Shown in pieces: positions 20,511 to 51,411 of a stretch of DNA of 64,000 nt. Position 1 is the first letter of the stretch. Every line of letters starts with the position of its first letter. Position numbers and translations under genes: made by a program. The stretch is from Bdellovibrionales bacterium (GTDB lineage Bacteria; Bdellovibrionota; Bdellovibrionia; Bdellovibrionales; JAUICD01): contig OZ253553.1 in the NCBI GenBank assembly GCA_965262715.1, positions 2,400,001-2,464,000 on the forward strand, given 5' to 3'. The notes below the pieces were generated by a model. That model was not told where the DNA came from, did not search any database, and was given only the letters and a program-made list of their open reading frames with translations.

Positions 20511-20618
20511 ATATAAGATTGCACCAATTGCACCATCTTCATATAAGATTGCACCAATTGCACCATCTTCATATAAGATTGCACCAATTGCACTATCTTC
20601 ATATAAGATTGCACTAAT
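20511..20618. repeat. 30-bp tandem repeat (~3.6 copies) ATATAAGATTGCACCAATTGCACCATCTTC
   Basis: Read directly; units start at 20511, 20541, 20571, 20601. Confidence 0.95.
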
Positions 20619-29858: not shown

Positions 29859-30796
29859 TCAATCATTATTTTGTTTGAAAGATTTACTAAATGCTTTTGA
29901 TAACTCTTCCATTTCTTCTAAGCCTCTATCAGGTATACCCATAGACTTATTAGCCCAATCGTACTTTTCAATAATAGGTTTTATTAGATTGATTACTTTA
30001 TCTTTCCAATTATCATTTTTTTCAATCTTTTTTAGTAAATAATATAAGATTAGTAATATGTAAAATATGTGATCATTTGGTATATCTGGTTTTTTATATT
30101 CTGAAGGTTTAATTGTTAATTTTTTATTCCAAAGTCGACTGTGATGAGCACAAATATTTCGTATGTATGTCAATACACGTAACCATTTTTCCAATGTTAG
30201 GTAATTTAGTTTAAAATGTTTAGAGATTTCCTTTTTATCTTCTTTTTTTAGATATTTATAGAAATGCGATAGCTGACCAAAACTTATGATTTCTGTGAGC
30301 ATCCAGATTGGTATGGTAGGAAAATCTTTATATTGGTTTTTATAATTTCTAATGGATTCATGTGATTGTGATGAACGCTCAGTATCTTTATGAATTTTTA
30401 CTAACCACTCATGATGTTCATCTTTTTTCTCTTTTTGAAAAAACTCATACTCTTCATGTGCAAATATACCATATTTGTGCGCTATGTGGTAAGTTAGCTG
30501 AGTACGAATTGCAACCTCCACCCATTCATAGCATCCATGACTAATAAGCGAAGTTCTCTATCAAATTCATATAATTCACATACGTTATTAAATGTTGTTT
30601 CAGGTTTTAGTTGTTCATTATTTCCTTTAGACTTAAATGGAATTAAATAAGCTTTGAATCTTTCATAACTAATAGAAGATAAAGTTCTGAAAGCATCTTG
30701 TTTATTGTGAATTATTAAGCCCTTTTTTTCAAGCAGATTAAGTTGCTGATCAAAAGTTAAAGTTAAGGGAGGTTTTTGATAACTAGAAATAGACAA
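29859..30796 (-). pseudogene. AbiF/AbiD-like (Abi_2) HEPN protein split by a frameshift near 30525
   Basis: N-part (QL..L..KGL, ISYERF, LYEFDRELR) and C-part (EVAIR, PIW, SFGQLS, RNICAHHSRLWN); one extra T restores DAIEWVEVAIR. Confidence 0.88.
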
Positions 30797-31865: not shown

Positions 31866-32081
31866 TTTCCTCTCCTAATACTATTGCTGTATTGCTGTTC
31901 ATTTCTTATTATCAAAGTTCACCAAAGTCAATAACCACCCTTTATATTATTTTATGCAACCTTTATAACTAAAAAGCCTGTTGTTGTTTATTAGAAAAGG
32001 TCTCAAAAATAAAAATTTGATGAACATTGCTAGTGGTTCATAACTTTATCTAACTACTGATGCACATCAGTGTTCATCTTT

Positions 32082-32262
32082 TTTCACTAAAATGCATCTA
32101 ACCTCTATTTCACTAAAATGCATCTAGCCTCTGGCTACTTTCTGGCAGTTAGCCTGAAGGCTCTCGCCTTCAGCAAGTAGCTTGTTACCTCAAAAATTTG
32201 TTCATTTTTAGTAGGGAGATATTCTTCGTATCTTTGTATAATGTTAAGGGAAATTTCCTCTT
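32082..32262 (+). repeat. Structured dispersed repeat, copy A, with a tandem 26-bp 5' duplication
   Basis: Homologous to 37954-38160 and to the reverse complement of 38525-38684. Confidence 0.85.
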
Positions 32263-32392
32263 AATATGTACACTTTTTTCTTACAAAAGGTTTGCAACTT
32301 CGATAAAAAAAGTTACTGATTAATTAAGGATACACAAAATAATTTATAAGCTCAATTATGAAAGTTTTTTCAGCTTTGAAAAGGTATAAAAT

Positions 32393-33985
32393 ATGAATGA
32401 TAAAGAATACGAGTTTTATAAGCCTGTTAGAAACTTAATACGTCAATATATCAGACATGACTTGCTCAAGGCAATTGTGCTAGATAGCTATAATATATCT
32501 AAAATATATGATAGTGGTAGAAGTCTTGAATATTTAAGCCAAAATGGCATTCCTCCTCATTATTTACTTCTTTTAGGTAAATGGATTATTTTAGATTGGG
32601 ACAACATAAGAGGTAAAAAGCCTGTAAGTCAAAATGAACTTATCAAAATAAAAAATGGAGTTATATCTTTTGCTGATAAAGTAGTAAAAGATGCAACTCC
32701 TCAAGATCTAATTTTAAAAAACAATAAAACTATGAGACAGATTGCATTTCAACAATTTTGGTACCAACAAAGACCAAATGACGAGGATGTAGGAAGAACT
32801 ATTGAGTTATTAATAAAACCATCTATTTCTGACAAAGCTGAGCGTATTATGTATGATTATTGTGGTCTTAATCGTATAGAGTTCTTTGACTTACTTTTAA
32901 CATTGAAAGAAGCTCTTGATAGAAATGCATTTATAATGAAAAGTTATTATGAAACTATGAAGATTGAAAAAAGAAAAATTGATTCTTTTTTCAAGCTACT
33001 TTCAATAAATGAAGATGACTTTACTGACTTTAGTGAAAAGTTTTCTACAAAAAAACATGGTGAGATTTATGAAACATCACCTTTTAAATTAAAACCCTTT
33101 TTAAATATAGGAGAAAAGTATTATCTTTGGAGTATTGCATTTCGTGATGAATTTATTAAGTTTGGAATTTATGATATCTTAAAATCTTCCGCCAAAAGTG
33201 AGTTTTCAAATTGTTGGGGTACTATCTTTGAAAATTATTTAAAGAAAAGATTAGATGAGTATAATATTTCTTATATTCCTGAAAAACAGCTAAGAAAAGA
33301 AGGTCACGCAAAACAAGTTGATTTTTTAATTAAACATAAAAGTTATTCCAAAAGTTTATTTCATAAAAGATCAACCCTCATTTCCTTTAAACAAATAATT
33401 TTTAGCTGTATGGTTACTCTAAAAAATATTTTTAGAGTAAAAGCTCCAATTTCTAAATATGATTTAATTTTGATTGAAGCGAAAGCAATTGAAGCTCCTC
33501 ATCATACAAAATCTTACCCTTCTGATAAAAGAATGATTAGGGCTTACAAAAAAGATATAATTAAAGCATTAGCACAGGCGCATGAGGTTATCAAAACATT
33601 TAAAGTAAATAAGCTTATTAATGATACTTTTTTACTTATTGTAACATATGAAGAGTTATATTTAGGTGATGGTGAAGATGTTTGGAATGAATTTGCTAAA
33701 ACCTCATTAAGTAATGATTATGGAATAAAGGATTTTAATATAAAACCAGAAAACTTATTCTTTATTTCAATTAATAGCTTTGATCGACTGCTTCGAATTA
33801 CAGATGGAAATATTGAACAAATGATTAAAATTTTTAAAGAAGTTATTAAACAAAAAAATGGTGAAACTAAAAAGTATATTTTTGAAGATTACTTAAAAGA
33901 GTTTGATGTGGAAAAAAGTAAAGATCAACATCTTTTTAAAGTTTTTGAAAATTATTTGAAAAATATGCAACAAAAATATTCCTAA
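32393..33985 (+). CDS. Hypothetical protein with putative C-terminal PD-(D/E)XK-like motifs
   Basis: 530-aa very AT-rich ORF; GTIFENY, VDFLI...LIEAK, QA. Confidence 0.5.
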   Translation: MNDKEYEFYKPVRNLIRQYIRHDLLKAIVLDSYNISKIYDSGRSLEYLSQNGIPPHYLLLLGKWIILDWDNIRGKKPVSQNELIKIKNGVISFADKVVKDATPQDLILKNNKTMRQIAFQQFWYQQRPNDEDVGRTIELLIKPSISDKAERIMYDYCGLNRIEFFDLLLTLKEALDRNAFIMKSYYETMKIEKRKIDSFFKLLSINEDDFTDFSEKFSTKKHGEIYETSPFKLKPFLNIGEKYYLWSIAFRDEFIKFGIYDILKSSAKSEFSNCWGTIFENYLKKRLDEYNISYIPEKQLRKEGHAKQVDFLIKHKSYSKSLFHKRSTLISFKQIIFSCMVTLKNIFRVKAPISKYDLILIEAKAIEAPHHTKSYPSDKRMIRAYKKDIIKALAQAHEVIKTFKVNKLINDTFLLIVTYEELYLGDGEDVWNEFAKTSLSNDYGIKDFNIKPENLFFISINSFDRLLRITDGNIEQMIKIFKEVIKQKNGETKKYIFEDYLKEFDVEKSKDQHLFKVFENYLKNMQQKYS

Positions 33986-34084
33986 AAAATGAATAATCTA
34001 CAATGATTGAAGTTGGCTAGAAGCCGTGGACACATCACCACAGTCATACCCAACAAATTAAATTCAGCTATATATTTTTTCAAA

Positions 34085-34801
34085 TTAATTGCTTGATTTC
34101 CAGTTTTCATGTCTTAAAGGCAAAGCATTGAGTTCATCTCTCAAATGTTTCCATGCTGGTATAACCCTATCCATAATAGATATAAATTGAGGCCCATGAT
34201 TGGGTATGAGCAAATGAGTCATTTCATGTGCTATCACGTATTCAACAAGTTCTATTGGCTTTTTAGCTAGTTCAGAATTGAGACGAATGCTCGATTGTTT
34301 AAAATGGCAACTCCCCCATCTTGTTTTCATCCTTTGTATATAAACCTTTTTAACTTTTACATGCATTATTTTTTCAAACTTTCTAATAACAGATGAGGCC
34401 AACGACCTCAATTCATTTCTATAAAATGTATTTAAAACCTGTTCTTTATCTTCTCTTGAAAAATGAGATTTTACACTCAATAAAAGTGTTTTATGTTGTA
34501 CATCTACAGATGGAGATTTTTGGGTTTCTAACACACTCAATAGATACCTTTTTCCCCATAGATAATGGCTTTCTCGATCTATAAACTCTCTAGGAGTTTC
34601 TCTCATTTGAGTTTTAAACTTATCTCTATTCTTTCGAATCCATAAAAGTTTTGAAATAGCAACCATTCTTATCTCATCGGATTTTATATGATAAGGTGCT
34701 GATATCCTAACTCTTCCATCTGGTGGTAAAATACTCAAATGAATGTTTTTAATATCTTTTTGTATGACATCAATATGGATATTACCTACTTCTATTTTCA
34801 T
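34085..34801 (-). CDS. YgjP/DUF45 (M48/SprT-like) metal-dependent hydrolase of type I R-M loci
   Basis: MKTRWGSC, EYVIAHEMTHL..NH. Confidence 0.9.
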   Translation of the reverse strand: MKIEVGNIHIDVIQKDIKNIHLSILPPDGRVRISAPYHIKSDEIRMVAISKLLWIRKNRDKFKTQMRETPREFIDRESHYLWGKRYLLSVLETQKSPSVDVQHKTLLLSVKSHFSREDKEQVLNTFYRNELRSLASSVIRKFEKIMHVKVKKVYIQRMKTRWGSCHFKQSSIRLNSELAKKPIELVEYVIAHEMTHLLIPNHGPQFISIMDRVIPAWKHLRDELNALPLRHENWKSSN

Positions 34802-34827
34802 CTCAAAACCCCTTTCAAATATATCTT

Positions 34828-35493
34828 CTAATATTCCTTTTGTTCATAAATGATTTGAAATACTTTCTCAACTTCATCCCTATCAAGGACAATATCATAT
34901 ATGGCTTTCTTGACAACTTGTTCTTTTGCCTGATGCCCTTTCCATCCATCTGGAGCATTTGTTTTGACAGCTTCATGTATTTTGAGTGTCAGCTTTAAAT
35001 TCTTGTTGAGATTTTCATAGAGTACTTTTTTACCATAAGTGTCTAATTCTTTAGGCAAATCATCTTCATAACCTTTTTGAATCTTTTTTGCTAAGTTAGC
35101 AATCATTTTTAGAAAAGCTTCATATTCAAAGGCTTTGCTTTTACGATTTTTAATGATCTCATCTAAAATTTGAGACATGCGATCATAAAACTCAGGATTG
35201 TTTGCTCTTTCTGTAATGATCTTCTTACGAATATTGTTTGTAATAGTTTCAATGATGGCCTCTTGATTATTTTTTAGAGATGAAGGAAGAGTATTGATGG
35301 CCTCATCAACTCCAGAGGTCATAATCAAATCAAGAAGGGGTGTGTTATCAAGGTGAGAGACTGTTCTTGCTTGTGAAGACTCAATATAATTATCAATCAA
35401 ATGCCTCATATCAGCTTCGTATGCCTTAAGATCAATGGTTTCACCACTTGCATTTTTGATGGTTTCTCGTAATTGAATGTAATACTTGACTTG
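34828..35493 (-). pseudogene. hsdR: C-terminal remnant of type I restriction subunit HsdR
   Basis: IKNASGETIDLKAYEADMRHLID, ETITNNIRKKI, FYDRMSQILD; upstream of ygjP as in type I loci. Confidence 0.75.
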
Positions 35494-35882
35494 ATTTTTA
35501 ATAACCTGTGTATATACTTTGCCATTTCTTTTTTTTAATCCAAATACAATAGTTTTTCCGCTTGATCCTCTTCCACGAAGACCTCGAACTCTTTTAGCTC
35601 CAAAGTAACTTTCATCAATTTCAATTTCTCCTTTTGAAAAAATACTTTCTTTTTCACAAAACTGAGTGATCCTTATACGAAGCTTTTTTAAAATTCTGTT
35701 AATACAATTTCTACTTATACCGGAAAAATAAGCTATTTGCTGAGCTGTTAAATCTCCTGAAAAAAGCTTGATAACTTCTCTAAATTTCTTCTCAGAAATT
35801 CGGGAACGGATAAAATACCTGTTTTTCATAATCATAACAGTAAGTTAACTCTCCTCAAAGTCAACTTAAAGTGTCATGAACC
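35494..35882 (-). mobile_element. Truncated IS1595-family element (left end plus N-terminal transposase)
   Basis: SRISEKKFR, EIEIDESYFG, RGRG..GKTIVFG, GKVYTQ; HsdM homology stops abruptly at GGTTCATGACAC (35882). Confidence 0.85.
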
Positions 35883-36276
35883 TTAAATATTCATAAGCAT
35901 CTACAAGAAGGTCATCCCCATCTGCACGATTTTGACTAAAGTCACTGTTTTCAAATATAGCAATTAAGTTGGTCAGCTTATCGACCATTTCCTTCCCATT
36001 ACCAAGTTTATTTTCTCTAGCTAGAGGAGCAATGATCCTTTTATTGATTTGATCTCCAATATCTGATTTGCCCTTCAGTGCAATCATATCTTGAAAACTT
36101 GCTCCTGGTGGTATCTTAATCGGAGCATAAGGCTGATTTGCGTATTTATCACTAATGTACTTGATAAACAAAAGGACCAAAACATAGTCCTTATATTGAC
36201 TGGCATCCATTCCCCCACGAAGCTCATCACAACTAGACCATAAAGTCGAATAAAGTTCAGATTTTTTCAATGTCAT
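35883..36276 (-). pseudogene. hsdM: N-terminal remnant of type I methyltransferase HsdM
   Basis: KKSELYSTLWSSCDELRGGMDASQYKDYVL, DAYEYL; no catalytic motifs follow. Confidence 0.9.
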
Positions 36277-36278
36277 AG

Positions 36279-37760
36279 CTAAACTCCAACTGTCTGATTT
36301 GCTTCATTCATTAAATGAGATGTCTTATCTTTCTGTAATCCATTGGCTATCAATTGAACTTTTGTTTCTTTTTGTATTTGATGATTGACAGGTTTTAAAA
36401 TGGAATCAAATGACACAATTCCATTGCTTGATAAAATGGCTTCTCTACATTTTGTGGCAAAGATTTTATCTGATGGGTGCTCTTGCAAATGCTGTGAAAT
36501 ATAAAATAAATCTGATGTACAAACAAGAGCAATACTGTGTTGATTGGCTGTTTGAATGCACTTTTCAGTAAATTGATTTGACCTCTTGCTTGGCTGGTCA
36601 AGTCGATAGGCATTTCCAAAAAGCACACCTTTTGCAATATCTTCTGTATTATCCTTTCCATTATATTCTACTAAATTCGTTATCAATTGAGAAATTTTTT
36701 TTCTATTAACATCCTTGTTTTTACCTTCAACCTCTCCTAAACCAGTCCCTTCTTTTGATTTGAAAGTGACGTCAAATTCAGATTCTGCATCCCTATAGTT
36801 TTGAGCCTTAAATCCCATTAACTCTAAGCAATTTATCACGGCTTCTTCTAAAGGTTTTCCAGTTTCAAAAAGAAGTCTGTAAGGCATTTTTGCTTTTTCT
36901 AAATCTTTTTCCAGATCAGCTTTATCTTGACCCAGTTTTTCTATTTTGATGTCTATCTTTCCTATATTTTGTTTTATTTGAGAAACACCATCTATTTTAA
37001 ATTTGTCATGGCTAGACCAGTCAGGAGGAGGCGTTAAAGCACAGGAGCTTTTAAGTGTTTGATCTATTTGAATAATATGCTGGATCAAACGATTTGAGAG
37101 TTGATATGCTTTTTCATTGTAAGTATATTCGACAAGATCAGAATGTCTAAAATTGATTGCAGGTAGAATAACCAAGAAACCACCAGATGGAGTCTTAATG
37201 ATTCCTCCGAAGACCTCTGATCTTCTTTTTGGATCAAAGTTTTTTGGAACAAAATACACATCACCTCGGAAATGAGAAAAAGCTATTTCATAGTAAAAAT
37301 ATTTTTCGAAGTCATCCCATAGAGACTTTAAAGTAGCCTTTGTATTACTATATTTTTTGATTTCTTTTCCTGAAACAATACGAGGTTTTCCTAAAGGTAA
37401 AAAATTTAAAAAAGGATTAAAATATTCATACTGATTGCCATATCTACTAGATGCTGTTTTATAATAATAAAATTCTGGTGGTTTTTCGCAAAAAACAAAA
37501 ATAGTTTTCTGTTCTGACATGGCCTGCTGAAATTCAGATTCCCAATGTTTAATTTCATCTCGAAAAACTCTAGATTGATCTTCTGTCAATAGTGGCTTTC
37601 CTTCAAATGTTTGTTGAAAGGTATAATTAAAAAATTGTGGTGAAAATAAAATCACATCCCCATCCATCAGTGACTTTCTGTCACTTGATAAATAAGAACT
37701 TACTTGCCCATTTTTAAAAGGGAAATGCTCTATTCCCATACCTATTATCTGTTTATCCAA
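36279..37760 (-). CDS. Hypothetical protein with coiled coil and C-terminal PD-(D/E)XK endonuclease-like domain
   Basis: TTG start with GGAGG SD; LLFETGKPLEEAV...GF, EFDV..., GEVEGK, QL. Confidence 0.6.
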   Translation of the reverse strand: MDKQIIGMGIEHFPFKNGQVSSYLSSDRKSLMDGDVILFSPQFFNYTFQQTFEGKPLLTEDQSRVFRDEIKHWESEFQQAMSEQKTIFVFCEKPPEFYYYKTASSRYGNQYEYFNPFLNFLPLGKPRIVSGKEIKKYSNTKATLKSLWDDFEKYFYYEIAFSHFRGDVYFVPKNFDPKRRSEVFGGIIKTPSGGFLVILPAINFRHSDLVEYTYNEKAYQLSNRLIQHIIQIDQTLKSSCALTPPPDWSSHDKFKIDGVSQIKQNIGKIDIKIEKLGQDKADLEKDLEKAKMPYRLLFETGKPLEEAVINCLELMGFKAQNYRDAESEFDVTFKSKEGTGLGEVEGKNKDVNRKKISQLITNLVEYNGKDNTEDIAKGVLFGNAYRLDQPSKRSNQFTEKCIQTANQHSIALVCTSDLFYISQHLQEHPSDKIFATKCREAILSSNGIVSFDSILKPVNHQIQKETKVQLIANGLQKDKTSHLMNEANQTVGV

Positions 37761-37953
37761 GATAATACCTCCTACACTTTCTTATCGAAATTACAAACTC
37801 CAAGAAAAGCCATATTGGCATAAAACTGACTCCTGTTCAACATATAAATCAAATGTACAAACTGCTCTATACTCCTAAATGATAACTGCTATGCAGCATA
37901 GAGGAACTATACCTATATGAGAGAGCCTTTTCACATAAGTTTGCCTTTCTGTC

Positions 37954-38160
37954 TCACTAAAAATGAACCAGCCTCTGTATCACTAAAATGCATCTCGTCT
38001 GTGTTTCCCTAAAAATAAACTGACCTCTGGTCATTTTTGGGCAGTTAGCCTGAAGACTTATGTCTTCAAGAAAATGCTAACTGCCTCAAAAATCCGTTTA
38101 TTTTTAGGAGGAAGATACTCTTCGTTTCTTTGCAAAATGTTAAGGAAAATTTTCTTTTAT
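37954..38160 (+). repeat. Structured dispersed repeat, copy B (three 26-bp 5' units plus 99-bp core at 38009-38107)
   Basis: Perfect 12-bp outer stem CTAAAAATAAAC/GTTTATTTTTAG and nested hairpins. Confidence 0.88.
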
Positions 38161-38228
38161 TATTTCTTCTGCAAGGCAATCCGGAATCAGTTCTCGGAAA
38201 CAGAAACCAGTTTGCCAGAGTGCCAAAT

Positions 38229-38522
38229 TCATGTATTTTGACACAACTTATAGAGGAATGCCCCAAGTTTATCAGCTTCCTTTATTAATACTTGATGATT
38301 AATAAGAATGAGTATGGCTTGTGTTTCTCTTAAAGAACCTAAACTAATTTCGTAAAATTTCCTACGTTCCTTAGAACTAGATTTTGCAGATCCTTCAGCT
38401 AAATTGAGTACAATACTAAGCACAGCTCTTTGAAACTGATTTTTCATTGGCCCTTTTAGAGTTAATTTATTAGATTTATGATAGAACTGAATTGCTAATT
38501 GATAAGTCTTGAATTTTTGCAT
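38229..38522 (-). CDS. Four-helix-bundle protein (23S rRNA-IVP / bAvd-like family)
   Basis: YQLA, QFQRAVLSIVLNLAEG, RRKFYEISLGSLRETQ motifs. Confidence 0.92.
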   Translation of the reverse strand: MQKFKTYQLAIQFYHKSNKLTLKGPMKNQFQRAVLSIVLNLAEGSAKSSSKERRKFYEISLGSLRETQAILILINHQVLIKEADKLGAFLYKLCQNT

Positions 38523-38524
38523 AA

Positions 38525-38684
38525 AAAAATAGAGGCATTTTCCCTAACATGTATGCAAAAAATGAGAAGTATCTCTTTACTAAAAATAAACAAATTTTTG
38601 AGGTAGTCAGCATTTTCTTGAAGATGTGAGTCTTCAGGCTGACTATCCAAAAATGGCCAGAGGCCAGTTTATTTTTAGTGATAC
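38525..38684 (-). repeat. Structured dispersed repeat, copy C (inverted; core 38580-38678)
   Basis: Reverse complement aligns with copy B over about 150 bp. Confidence 0.88.
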
Positions 38685-38792
38685 AACTTGGGAGGTAAAA
38701 ATTATGCAAAAATTCAAAATAAGCTTATTTATTACCAGTTTCCAGAAACCGGTTTCCCGGAAGCCATATCCCGGATGAATAAAACAGTGTTT

Positions 38793-50760: not shown

Positions 50761-50768
50761 AGTTTTAA

Positions 50769-51347
50769 CAGTTCATCCCCGCAGGTGCGGGGAACATTGT
50801 TTTCTTTAAGGAGGGGTTTAACAACATTACCGGTTCATCCCCGCAGGTGCGGGGAACATATACAGACATTAAAGATATGCTTTACTCATATCGGTTCATC
50901 CCCGCAGGTGCGGGGAACATCTCATGCAGTTTGAAAACCAAATCAGTCATTTCGGTTCATCCCCGCAGGTGCGGGGAACATACCCAGATTTTTAAGCCAA
51001 CAAAAACCTCTGTCGGTTCATCCCCGCAGGTGCGGGGAACATCTCTATAATCAGAGTTTAACAGTTCTGGTATCCGGTTCATCCCCGCAGGTGCGGGGAA
51101 CATTACTTGAGCCATTTTGTAAGCCGGCTCTTTGGCGGTTCATCCCCGCAGGTGCGGGGAACATTTTTACCTTAAAGGCATAGTTTGAATCTAAACCGGT
51201 TCATCCCCGCAGGTGCGGGGAACATGCAAAACATAGAAACCTTAAATAATAAAGGGACGGTTCATCCCCGCAGGTGCGGGGAACATTGGATCAAGTGCAT
51301 AATACTTAGCAAACCTTCCGGTTCATCCCCGCAGGTGCGGGGAACAT
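50769..51347 (-). CRISPR. Type I-E CRISPR array: 10 repeats of 29 bp (ATGTTCCCCGCACCTGCGGGGATGAACCG), 9 spacers of 32-33 bp
   Basis: Repeats start at 50769, 50831, 50892, 50953, 51014, 51075, 51136, 51197, 51258, 51319; the leader-distal repeat has one mismatch. Confidence 0.99.
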
Positions 51348-51411
51348 ACTTCTTATAACTTATTAAAATATCAAAGAAATTTTAATATGAAACCTTTTAC
51401 CATTTAATATC
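51348..51411 (-). promoter_or_regulatory. CRISPR leader (AT-rich, probably extends into the cas2 3' end)
   Basis: Lies between the cas2 stop and the first intact repeat. Confidence 0.7.

What the first reader, a model, noticed from the sequence alone, without database searches (positions are those of the whole stretch)
32082..38684. Novel covarying multi-stem element in three copies
Copies A (32111-32213), B (38009-38107) and C (inverted, 38580-38678) share one fold with compensatory changes. Side hairpin: TAGCC-tct-GGCTA / TGACC-tct-GGTCA / TGGCC-tct-GGCCA. Apical hairpin: TGAAGGC/GCCTTCA versus TGAAGAC/GTCTTCA. Middle stem: GCAGTTAGC/GCTAACTGC versus TAGTCAGC/GCTGACTA. B and C also have a 12-bp outer stem and one unpaired extra base. 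Mismatches in C become G-U pairs on the strand opposite to A/B-plus. Covariation indicates selection on single-stranded structure: an ncRNA, a folded-ssDNA recombination site (attC- or REPIN-like), or a non-autonomous mobile element. I do not recognise the family.
Basis: partly seen in the sequence, partly recalled or inferred. Interest (0 to 1): 0.8.

Follow-up and report, generated by a model that had tools for sequence, protein, structure and literature searches.

The report
Folded selfish repeat without known mobiliser
The three flagged copies belong to a family of about 450 short non-coding repeats scattered through this bacterium's genome whose paired stems change together; it is likely a selfish element copied as a folded single strand, it clusters at tRNA gene ends and beside a small four-helix-protein gene, and the enzyme that would move it was not found.

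Summary
The element is real, but it is not a three-copy curiosity. A, B and C are 3 of 454 hits of a ~150-nt intergenic repeat (2.3% of the genome). It also occurs in G001 (same genus) and on small, probably foreign contigs of G004, and in no other genome sampled. Covariation holds: 28 of 45 pairs change on both sides, almost only Watson-Crick. B and C fold strongly; A is a chimera that keeps only two helices. Copies show no bias to genes or replichore, one fairly fixed end, one ragged end, no target duplication, and nesting into older copies. No Rfam match; no RAYT, integron integrase, IS110, TnpB or IS with matching ends; reverse transcriptases only in G000. Clues added here: the fixed end abuts tRNA CCA ends in both genomes, and copies crowd around four-helix-bundle (IVP/Avd-like) genes (12 of 19; 14 of 14), one of which lies between B and C. 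That gene also spreads without the repeat. The scan found this family before on other DNA (e1-3058934, e1-4383057, e1-3058933, e1-4382930). Verdict: undescribed REPIN/BIME-like non-autonomous repeat, mobiliser unknown.

The parts
32105..32253 (+). Copy A, chimeric: P2 and P4 intact, P1 and P3 arms from different variants
32079..32104 (+). 26-nt stub of another copy's fixed end, broken off in the P2 loop, directly before A
   Evidence: sequence; repeat family D4; such stubs precede 17 of 118 G000 heads
38001..38149 (+). Copy B, complete: P1 38009-38020/38096-38107, P2, P3, P4, then the 40-nt tail
   Evidence: covariance-model hit of 160 bits
37949..38000 (+). Two tandem fixed-end stubs before B, each of a different variant
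   Evidence: sequence; family D4
38538..38686 (-). Copy C, complete, sitting in the leader of the four-helix-bundle gene; 94% identical to a copy at the same leader position of another four-helix gene (G000 2507590)
38229..38522 (-). Four-helix-bundle gene, 97 aa (PF05635 23S_rRNA_IVP, TIGR02436; Avd-like); one of 19 matches in G000
38172..38224 (-). Short-word repeat arm downstream of the four-helix gene, running into B's tail
   Evidence: sequence; same arms at other copies; limits read by eye
38687..38777 (-). Remaining leader and upstream short-word arm of the four-helix cassette, on the far side of C
   Evidence: sequence; comparison with uninterrupted leaders; limits read by eye

Best explanation
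This is a family of about 450 non-coding, multi-helix repeats scattered between genes, and it likely spreads as a non-autonomous selfish element that a trans-acting, still unidentified enzyme would recognise by its single-stranded fold. Shown: copy number, intergenic position, strict stem covariation, partly independent assortment of helices, one fairly fixed end and one ragged end, no target-site duplication in nearly all copies, nesting into older copies, tandem arrays, and clustering at tRNA ends and four-helix genes. Inferred: copying starts at the fixed end and runs a variable distance past the tail, so it carries donor flank along (at times the arm or whole gene of a four-helix cassette). 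The far junction is then closed by 2-5-nt microhomology. The intermediate is most likely ssDNA, as in REP/BIME spread by a Y1 nuclease. I give about 0.8 to the class (selfish folded repeat) and about 0.45 to the ssDNA route.
For: 454 hits, 0 in the reversed genome. 446 of 454 lie outside ORFs >=150 aa, which cover 74% of the genome. 28 of 45 pairs compensatory; 97.3% of cells paired against 84.0% shuffled and 32-50% slid. Watson-Crick cells: 8306 of 9048 in 232 G000 copies and 7399 of 7761 in 199 G001 copies; G.T only 162 and 80, which is DNA-like. The outer-stem arms, 90 nt apart, are linked (normalised MI 0.66) more than P1 to P4 (0.10-0.17), and 87 helix combinations occur in 132 typed copies. 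No replichore bias (119/130 of 249 blocks) and all four gene contexts used (55/85/60/49). Conservation starts sharply at a YT at one end and fades at the other. Shared 6-mers between flanks in only 4-7 of 110 G000 copies and 0-5 of 179 G001 copies. Close partners share >=40 nt of flank on the tail side in 13 of 54 against 4 of 54 on the head side in G000, and 15 against 8 of 149 in G001. A filled/empty pair shows a 450-nt block ending at the fixed end, with a small target loss. Nested junctions with short microhomology, read by eye. TnpA-REP cuts ssDNA at C|T near a bound hairpin and is proposed to build tandem mosaics (PMC3333891, passages).
Against: No candidate enzyme was found. The one Y1 gene in G000 is IS200-like by eye and has no copy within 1.8 kb; none in G001. 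Y2 had 0 hits but the control also rang nowhere; Rep_trans 0 of 5 genomes. There is no lagging-strand bias, which IS200-type elements show (PMC3333891), though the GC skew of this genome is irregular. The fixed end is not exact: 0-6 extra bases are common. The head/tail flank asymmetry is modest, weak in G001. The minus strand folds better in 197 of 232 copies and A.C exceeds G.T (41 vs 19 contexts, p=0.006 in G000; p=0.12 in G001), which an RNA route explains as well. Movement was never observed.
Confidence: 0.55

Rival explanations
1. SINE-like retro-element. The minus strand is transcribed by read-through, often as the 3' end of a four-helix-bundle mRNA, trimmed to the foot of P1, and copied by a reverse transcriptase primed at DNA nicks or at tRNA 3' ends, possibly helped by the Avd-like protein.
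For: A head motif lies within ~12 nt after the CCA in 4 of 36 G000 and 4 of 32 G001 tRNAs, against 0.005 per random non-coding end; mostly different tRNAs, often flush with CCA. Heads also abut tRNA 5' ends on the opposite strand (3 of 38; 3 of 32, one doubtful). The minus strand folds better and an almost invariant C.A becomes G.U on it. In 12 of 14 G001 four-helix genes the nearest downstream copy is read in sense on its minus strand. 43 of 159 G001 copies carry arm words on the tail side in gene sense, against 5-13 in the other three positions. G000 has a group II intron RT and a retron RT. PF05635 resembles Avd, the RT partner of DGRs (PMC10053308, passages).
Against: No RT or group II intron was found in G001, where copies look at least as recent (90% complete). 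G.U pairs are rare. The arm link is weak in G000 (1-5 of 115). Multi-copy four-helix genes occur in genomes without the repeat and, in G004, without RT.
Confidence: 0.2
2. No dedicated enzyme. Hairpins stall replication or are cut by host nucleases, and repair by template switching between copies builds mosaics, arrays and occasional ectopic copies; stems stay matched because one arm is recopied from the other.
For: No mobiliser found. Many other repeat families form mosaics in the same genome. Microhomology junctions, tandem arrays and internal module expansions.
Against: It does not explain fixed unpaired motifs, a shared end position across hundreds of unrelated sites, tRNA-end hot spots or clean insertions into unique DNA.
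Confidence: 0.12
3. A classical MITE moved by a DDE transposase through imperfect terminal inverted repeats.
For: In G001 variants the two ends match at 11 of 14 bases (sequence). The genome holds many IS families.
Against: No target duplication; ragged tail end; none of six multi-copy transposase-like families checked has similar ends; selection acts on the internal fold.
Confidence: 0.06
4. A host-beneficial structured ncRNA or cis-regulatory RNA, or an attC-like recombination site.
For: Strong covariation; the tail helix varies by C/U against G on the plus strand; a GTT-containing palindrome in the tail.
Against: No orientation to genes; insertion inside genes; genus-limited; no IntI; the two tyrosine recombinases are not flanked by the repeat.
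Confidence: 0.07

Closest known systems
REP / BIME / REPIN elements spread by TnpA-REP (RAYT) (PMC3333891; bioRxiv 10.1101/2021.07.10.451892; PMC3733652)
   Same: Hundreds of intergenic palindromic copies, paired variation in stems, mosaics and tandem arrays, lineage restriction, a YT at the fixed junction.
   Different: A ~150-nt three-way junction plus tail instead of 20-40-nt hairpins; no GTAG tag at the foot of the main stem; no RAYT gene flanked by the repeat.
CGTC-tagged REPs / Rickettsia palindromic elements (PMC3733652)
   Same: Abundant folded repeats with no dedicated transposase identified.
   Different: No CGTC tag, longer and branched, almost never inside intact ORFs.
Bacterial MITEs (Correia/NEMIS, RUP, ERIC; PMC3733652)
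   Same: Size of 70-300 bp, non-coding, foldable, imperfectly inverted ends.
   Different: No target duplication, one ragged end, no cognate IS found.
IS91/ISCR and Helitron rolling-circle elements (recalled, not from a call)
   Same: One fixed end, run-on capture of flank at the other, no target duplication.
   Different: No Y2 or Rep protein found; no autonomous partner.
Four-helix-bundle (IVP/Avd-like, PF05635) cassettes with short-repeat arms
   Same: The gene between B and C is such a cassette, multi-copy and with arms.
   Different: The cassette is widespread (58 of 151 order genomes) without this repeat (3 of 151), so it is a neighbour or passenger, not shown to be the mobiliser.

Membership tests
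REP/REPIN-RAYT | RAYT (Y1 HUH) gene flanked by the repeat | tested here: not met
   One Y1 hit in G000, nearest copy 1.8 kb away and partial; 0 in G001 and G004; control rang in 6 of 14
REP/REPIN-RAYT | GTAG or CGTC tetranucleotide at the 5' foot of a 20-40-nt hairpin | tested here: inconclusive
   GTAG/GTAA follows P1 and precedes a weak, poorly kept 4-5-bp hairpin; not at the foot of the main stem
REP/REPIN-RAYT | High-copy, intergenic, clustered and mosaic, stems kept by paired changes | tested here: met
REP/REPIN-RAYT | ssDNA cleavage at C|T by the cognate enzyme | not testable with these tools
   YT is enriched at the fixed end, which is compatible only
MITE (DDE) | 15-30-bp terminal inverted repeats | tested here: inconclusive
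   Up to 11 of 14 bases match in G001 variants; weaker in G000
MITE (DDE) | Target-site duplication | tested here: not met
   6-mers shared by the flanks in 4-7 of 110 and 0-5 of 179 copies, near shuffled values; a few G000 copies (up to 4) have longer repeats
MITE (DDE) | Resident IS with the same ends | tested here: not met
   Ends of the multi-copy IS30-, IS1634- (three), IS5-, IS256- and IS3-like families (labels by eye) differ; G001's IS set not checked
attC / integron | Integron integrase in the genome | tested here: not met
   Best TIGR02249 score 44 bits, cut-off 265
attC / integron | Arrays of co-oriented ORF + site cassettes | tested here: not met
   Dispersed; no gene-orientation rule
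IS91/Helitron-type | Y2 or Rep HUH transposase | tested here: inconclusive
   Y2 0 of 5 but the control rang nowhere; Rep_trans 0 of 5 with control ringing; other Rep and relaxase families not searched
IS91/Helitron-type | One fixed end, capture of flank at the other, no duplication | tested here: inconclusive
   Trend present but modest
IS110 bridge-RNA or TnpB omega-RNA derivative | IS110 recombinase or TnpB in the genome | tested here: not met
   IS110 0 in G000 and G001. The single TnpB-domain hit in G000 is a Cas12a-like protein; the G001 hit lies in a 1365-aa frame and was not examined further. IscB not searched
SINE-like retro-element | Reverse transcriptase available in trans | tested here: inconclusive
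   Present in G000, not found in G001
SINE-like retro-element | Transcript with a defined end | not testable with these tools
   No RNA holder listed
Rfam RNA family | Score at or above a gathering threshold | tested here: not met
   0 in the window; best weak hit 27.5 bits against 60

The most novel reading that the evidence does not exclude
A bacterial SINE-like or otherwise RAYT-independent replicator. The folded element is the 3' module of a four-helix-bundle (Avd-like) transcript or cassette; that orphan protein binds the fold and recruits a polymerase, so the element is inserted by target-primed copying at nicks and at tRNA 3' ends, and carries the gene along when copying runs long. This would name a function for the long-unexplained IVP/four-helix family and a new route for repeat spread in bacteria.
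Probability: 0.13. Interest if true: 0.82.

Novelty: new variant of a known kind. Interest (0 to 1): 0.4.

Why it matters
How abundant bacterial palindromic repeats without a cognate transposase spread is an open question (stated for CGTC repeats in PMC3733652). This family offers hundreds of diverged copies with a well-resolved fold, two testable target clues (tRNA ends, older copies) and one candidate partner protein. It is limited to one uncultured genus, has no shown host function, and the scan has reported it four times before, so without the enzyme it stays a descriptive result.

Tried and rejected
Four-helix gene as obligatory partner: first suggested because G000, G001 and G004 had both and G002, G003 neither. 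Rejected when 800 kb of G004's large contigs (68-69% identical to G000) held four-helix genes but 0 copies, all 10 copies lying on small contigs 85-89% identical to G000, and when 58 of 151 order genomes had the gene against 3 with the repeat. None of 80 metagenome four-helix loci had the repeat. Rpn/YhgA nucleases: also 16 matches in G003, which lacks the repeat. Xer/dif-like reading of the tail: arm spacing does not fit, and the tyrosine recombinases are not flanked. GIY-YIG: one hit per genome in a 612-653-aa frame, UvrC-sized. General preference for inserting 3' of a hairpin: none (7.6% vs 6.9%). Truncation polarity (120 head-less vs 24 tail-less) is uninformative: 53 follow another copy and many others are whole copies with an expanded P2 module. 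A and B as ends of a composite island: no empty site found; dapB and mlaD are not neighbours in G001. Read laying confirmed the locus in two samples but gave no clean empty allele. No RNA holder listed. Phage and plasmid blastn 0. Literature searches listed no description of this family; the library lacks most subscription papers and no supplements were read.
Full report
OBSERVATION. The described core runs from one arm of the outer stem to the other; the conserved unit is about 149 nt, with 7 nt before the stem and a 40-nt tail after it. B keeps all 39 core pairs and C 37 of 39. A keeps the side and apical hairpins but only 9 of 13 outer and 8 of 15 middle pairs, and folds little better than shuffles (z -0.9 and -2.3, against -4.5 to -7.1 for B and C). 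A's halves carry different helix variants, so I read it as a chimera (inference from sequence).

COPY NUMBER AND RANGE. An iterated profile finds 454 hits at E<=1e-5, 66.6 kb or 2.3% of G000, and none in the reversed genome. A tighter profile finds 427, of which 276 have both ends. 446 of 454 lie outside ORFs of 150 aa or more. G001 (same genus) is full of copies; the record title seen names Bdellovibrionales. G004 has copies only on small contigs 85-89% identical to G000, while 800 kb of its large contigs are 68-69% identical and have none, so those small contigs are probably from a relative of G000. A covariance model found it in 3 of 151 genomes of the order and 1 of 151 of the phylum, G000 included in both counts. 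Viral, metagenome, phage and plasmid searches were empty. No Rfam family matches.

FOLD. I aligned 47 of 70 candidate full copies (38 G001, 4 G004, 5 G000), leaving out most longer forms with stubs or inserts and some near-duplicates. The consensus is a three-way junction: outer stem P1, side hairpin P2 with an invariant TCT loop, long stem P3 capped by hairpin P4, then a small tail hairpin. 28 of 45 pairs change on both sides; 97.3% of cells pair, against 84.0% in shuffles and 32-50% when slid. These controls do not remove relatedness. Over 232 distinct G000 copies and 199 G001 copies, 92% and 95% of core cells are Watson-Crick and G.T makes up 1-2%. Arms taken from different copies give a perfect P1 in 5% of draws, against 106 of 232 real copies. 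Helices assort partly independently: MI 0.66 between the P1 arms, 0.10-0.17 between P1 and P4. Strand: the minus strand folds better in 197 of 232 copies and A.C exceeds G.T in well-formed G000 copies (p=0.006; G001 p=0.12), but changes at conserved stem columns are symmetric and the tail helix favours the plus strand. The strand signal is therefore weak.

BEHAVIOUR. No bias to replichore (119/130 of 249 blocks) or to neighbouring genes. One end starts sharply at YTGTWTCAC; the other fades after the tail. There is no general target duplication. New copies sit inside older ones: 17 of 118 G000 and 47 of 219 G001 heads follow a stub broken in the P2 loop, and tails rejoin older copies through short microhomology (read by eye). 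Close partners share long flank more often on the tail side (13 vs 4 of 54; 15 vs 8 of 149). One orthologous filled/empty site shows a 450-nt block ending at the fixed end; its other repeats could have arrived separately. 13 of 38 G000 tRNA genes have a copy within 250 nt, against a 10% null. A head motif follows the CCA within about 12 nt in 4 of 36 G000 and 4 of 32 G001 tRNAs, against 0.005 per random non-coding end; that null was computed on G000 only.

THE GENE BETWEEN B AND C. It encodes a 97-aa four-helix-bundle protein, with 19 matches in G000 and 14 in G001. 12 of 19 G000 genes have a copy within 250 nt or inside, against 305 of 2240 ORFs. All 14 G001 genes have one within 450 nt downstream of the start, in 12 cases tail toward the gene on the opposite strand; both genomes have copies inserted at about the same codon. 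These genes are related, so the counts are not independent events. The gene has its own short-word arms and is multi-copy in many relatives without the repeat. It is thus a favoured neighbour or passenger, not a shown mobiliser.

MOBILISER SEARCH. No RAYT, Y2 (24, weak control), Rep_trans (82), IS110 (58), TnpB (56, 59, 104), integron integrase (83) or IS with matching ends (51). G000 has group II intron and retron RTs; G001 has none found. G001 is rated 90% complete, and other Rep, relaxase and IscB families were not searched.

MECHANISM. Best supported: a non-autonomous element read by its fold and copied as a single strand from a fixed end with variable run-on. This works like REP/BIME spread by TnpA-REP, which cuts ssDNA at C|T near a bound hairpin and is proposed to build tandem arrays (PMC3333891, passages). 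It is not a member of that family, since the RAYT test failed. The retro route is the main rival: it explains the tRNA junctions, the minus-strand lean and the link to an Avd-like gene (PMC10053308, passages), but it lacks an RT in G001. All enzyme steps are inferred.

LITERATURE AND EARLIER NOTES. I read passages only of PMC3733652, PMC3333891, PMC10053308 and bioRxiv 10.1101/2021.07.10.451892. Nine searches listed no description of this family. IS91 and Helitron features, typical RNA G.U frequency and RT template jumping are recalled. Earlier scan notes describe the same family on other DNA; my reading was set before I saw them. The tRNA-end counts, end polarity tests and four-helix linkage counts were made here.

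VERDICT. Real, undescribed in the literature I could search, but a variant of a familiar kind and already noted by the scan. Interest 0.4; the bolder reading has probability about 0.13.

Noticed in passing
window 50764-51361: CRISPR array, 10 repeats at 61-nt spacing.
   Followed up: no
window 32393-37760: Between A and B: a GapS1-like gene below cut-off, a YgjP-like peptidase, an IS1595 fragment fused in frame to an unrelated C-terminal part, an HsdM N-terminal fragment and a 493-aa protein without a family hit; looks like a decayed type I R-M/defence patch.
   Followed up: partly
window 29859-30796: Abi_2 gene split into two ORFs.
   Followed up: no
window 20511-20618: Three near-identical copies at 30-nt spacing.
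   Followed up: no
window about 31966-32078: Member of another intergenic repeat family directly upstream of A; G000 holds many more repeat families (713 high-coverage islands).
   Followed up: partly
L244 (G000 2588-2602 kb): Type V locus with two large ORFs in tandem (1407 and 1334 aa; the second scores as Cas12a, possibly Cas12a2) followed by cas4-, cas1- and cas2-like genes; G001 has a TnpB-domain hit in a 1365-aa frame.
   Followed up: partly
L024 (G000 2649-2653 kb): 590-aa retron-type RT with an NDT-like N-terminal part, next to tRNA-Asp and a copy of the repeat.
   Followed up: partly
L258, L262, L263, L275: In other Bdellovibrionales, four-helix genes stand head to head with an almost perfect inverted repeat spanning both leaders and gene starts, suggesting fold-back duplication.
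   Followed up: no
G004: The bin appears mixed: small contigs C1, C4 and C11 are 85-89% identical to G000, the large ones 68-69%.
   Followed up: yes
G003 and G004: No tyrosine recombinase found in either 1.6-Mb genome.
   Followed up: no
L098: A G001 tRNA-Arg gene is enclosed by the same short-word arms that flank four-helix genes, followed by the repeat's tail.
   Followed up: no
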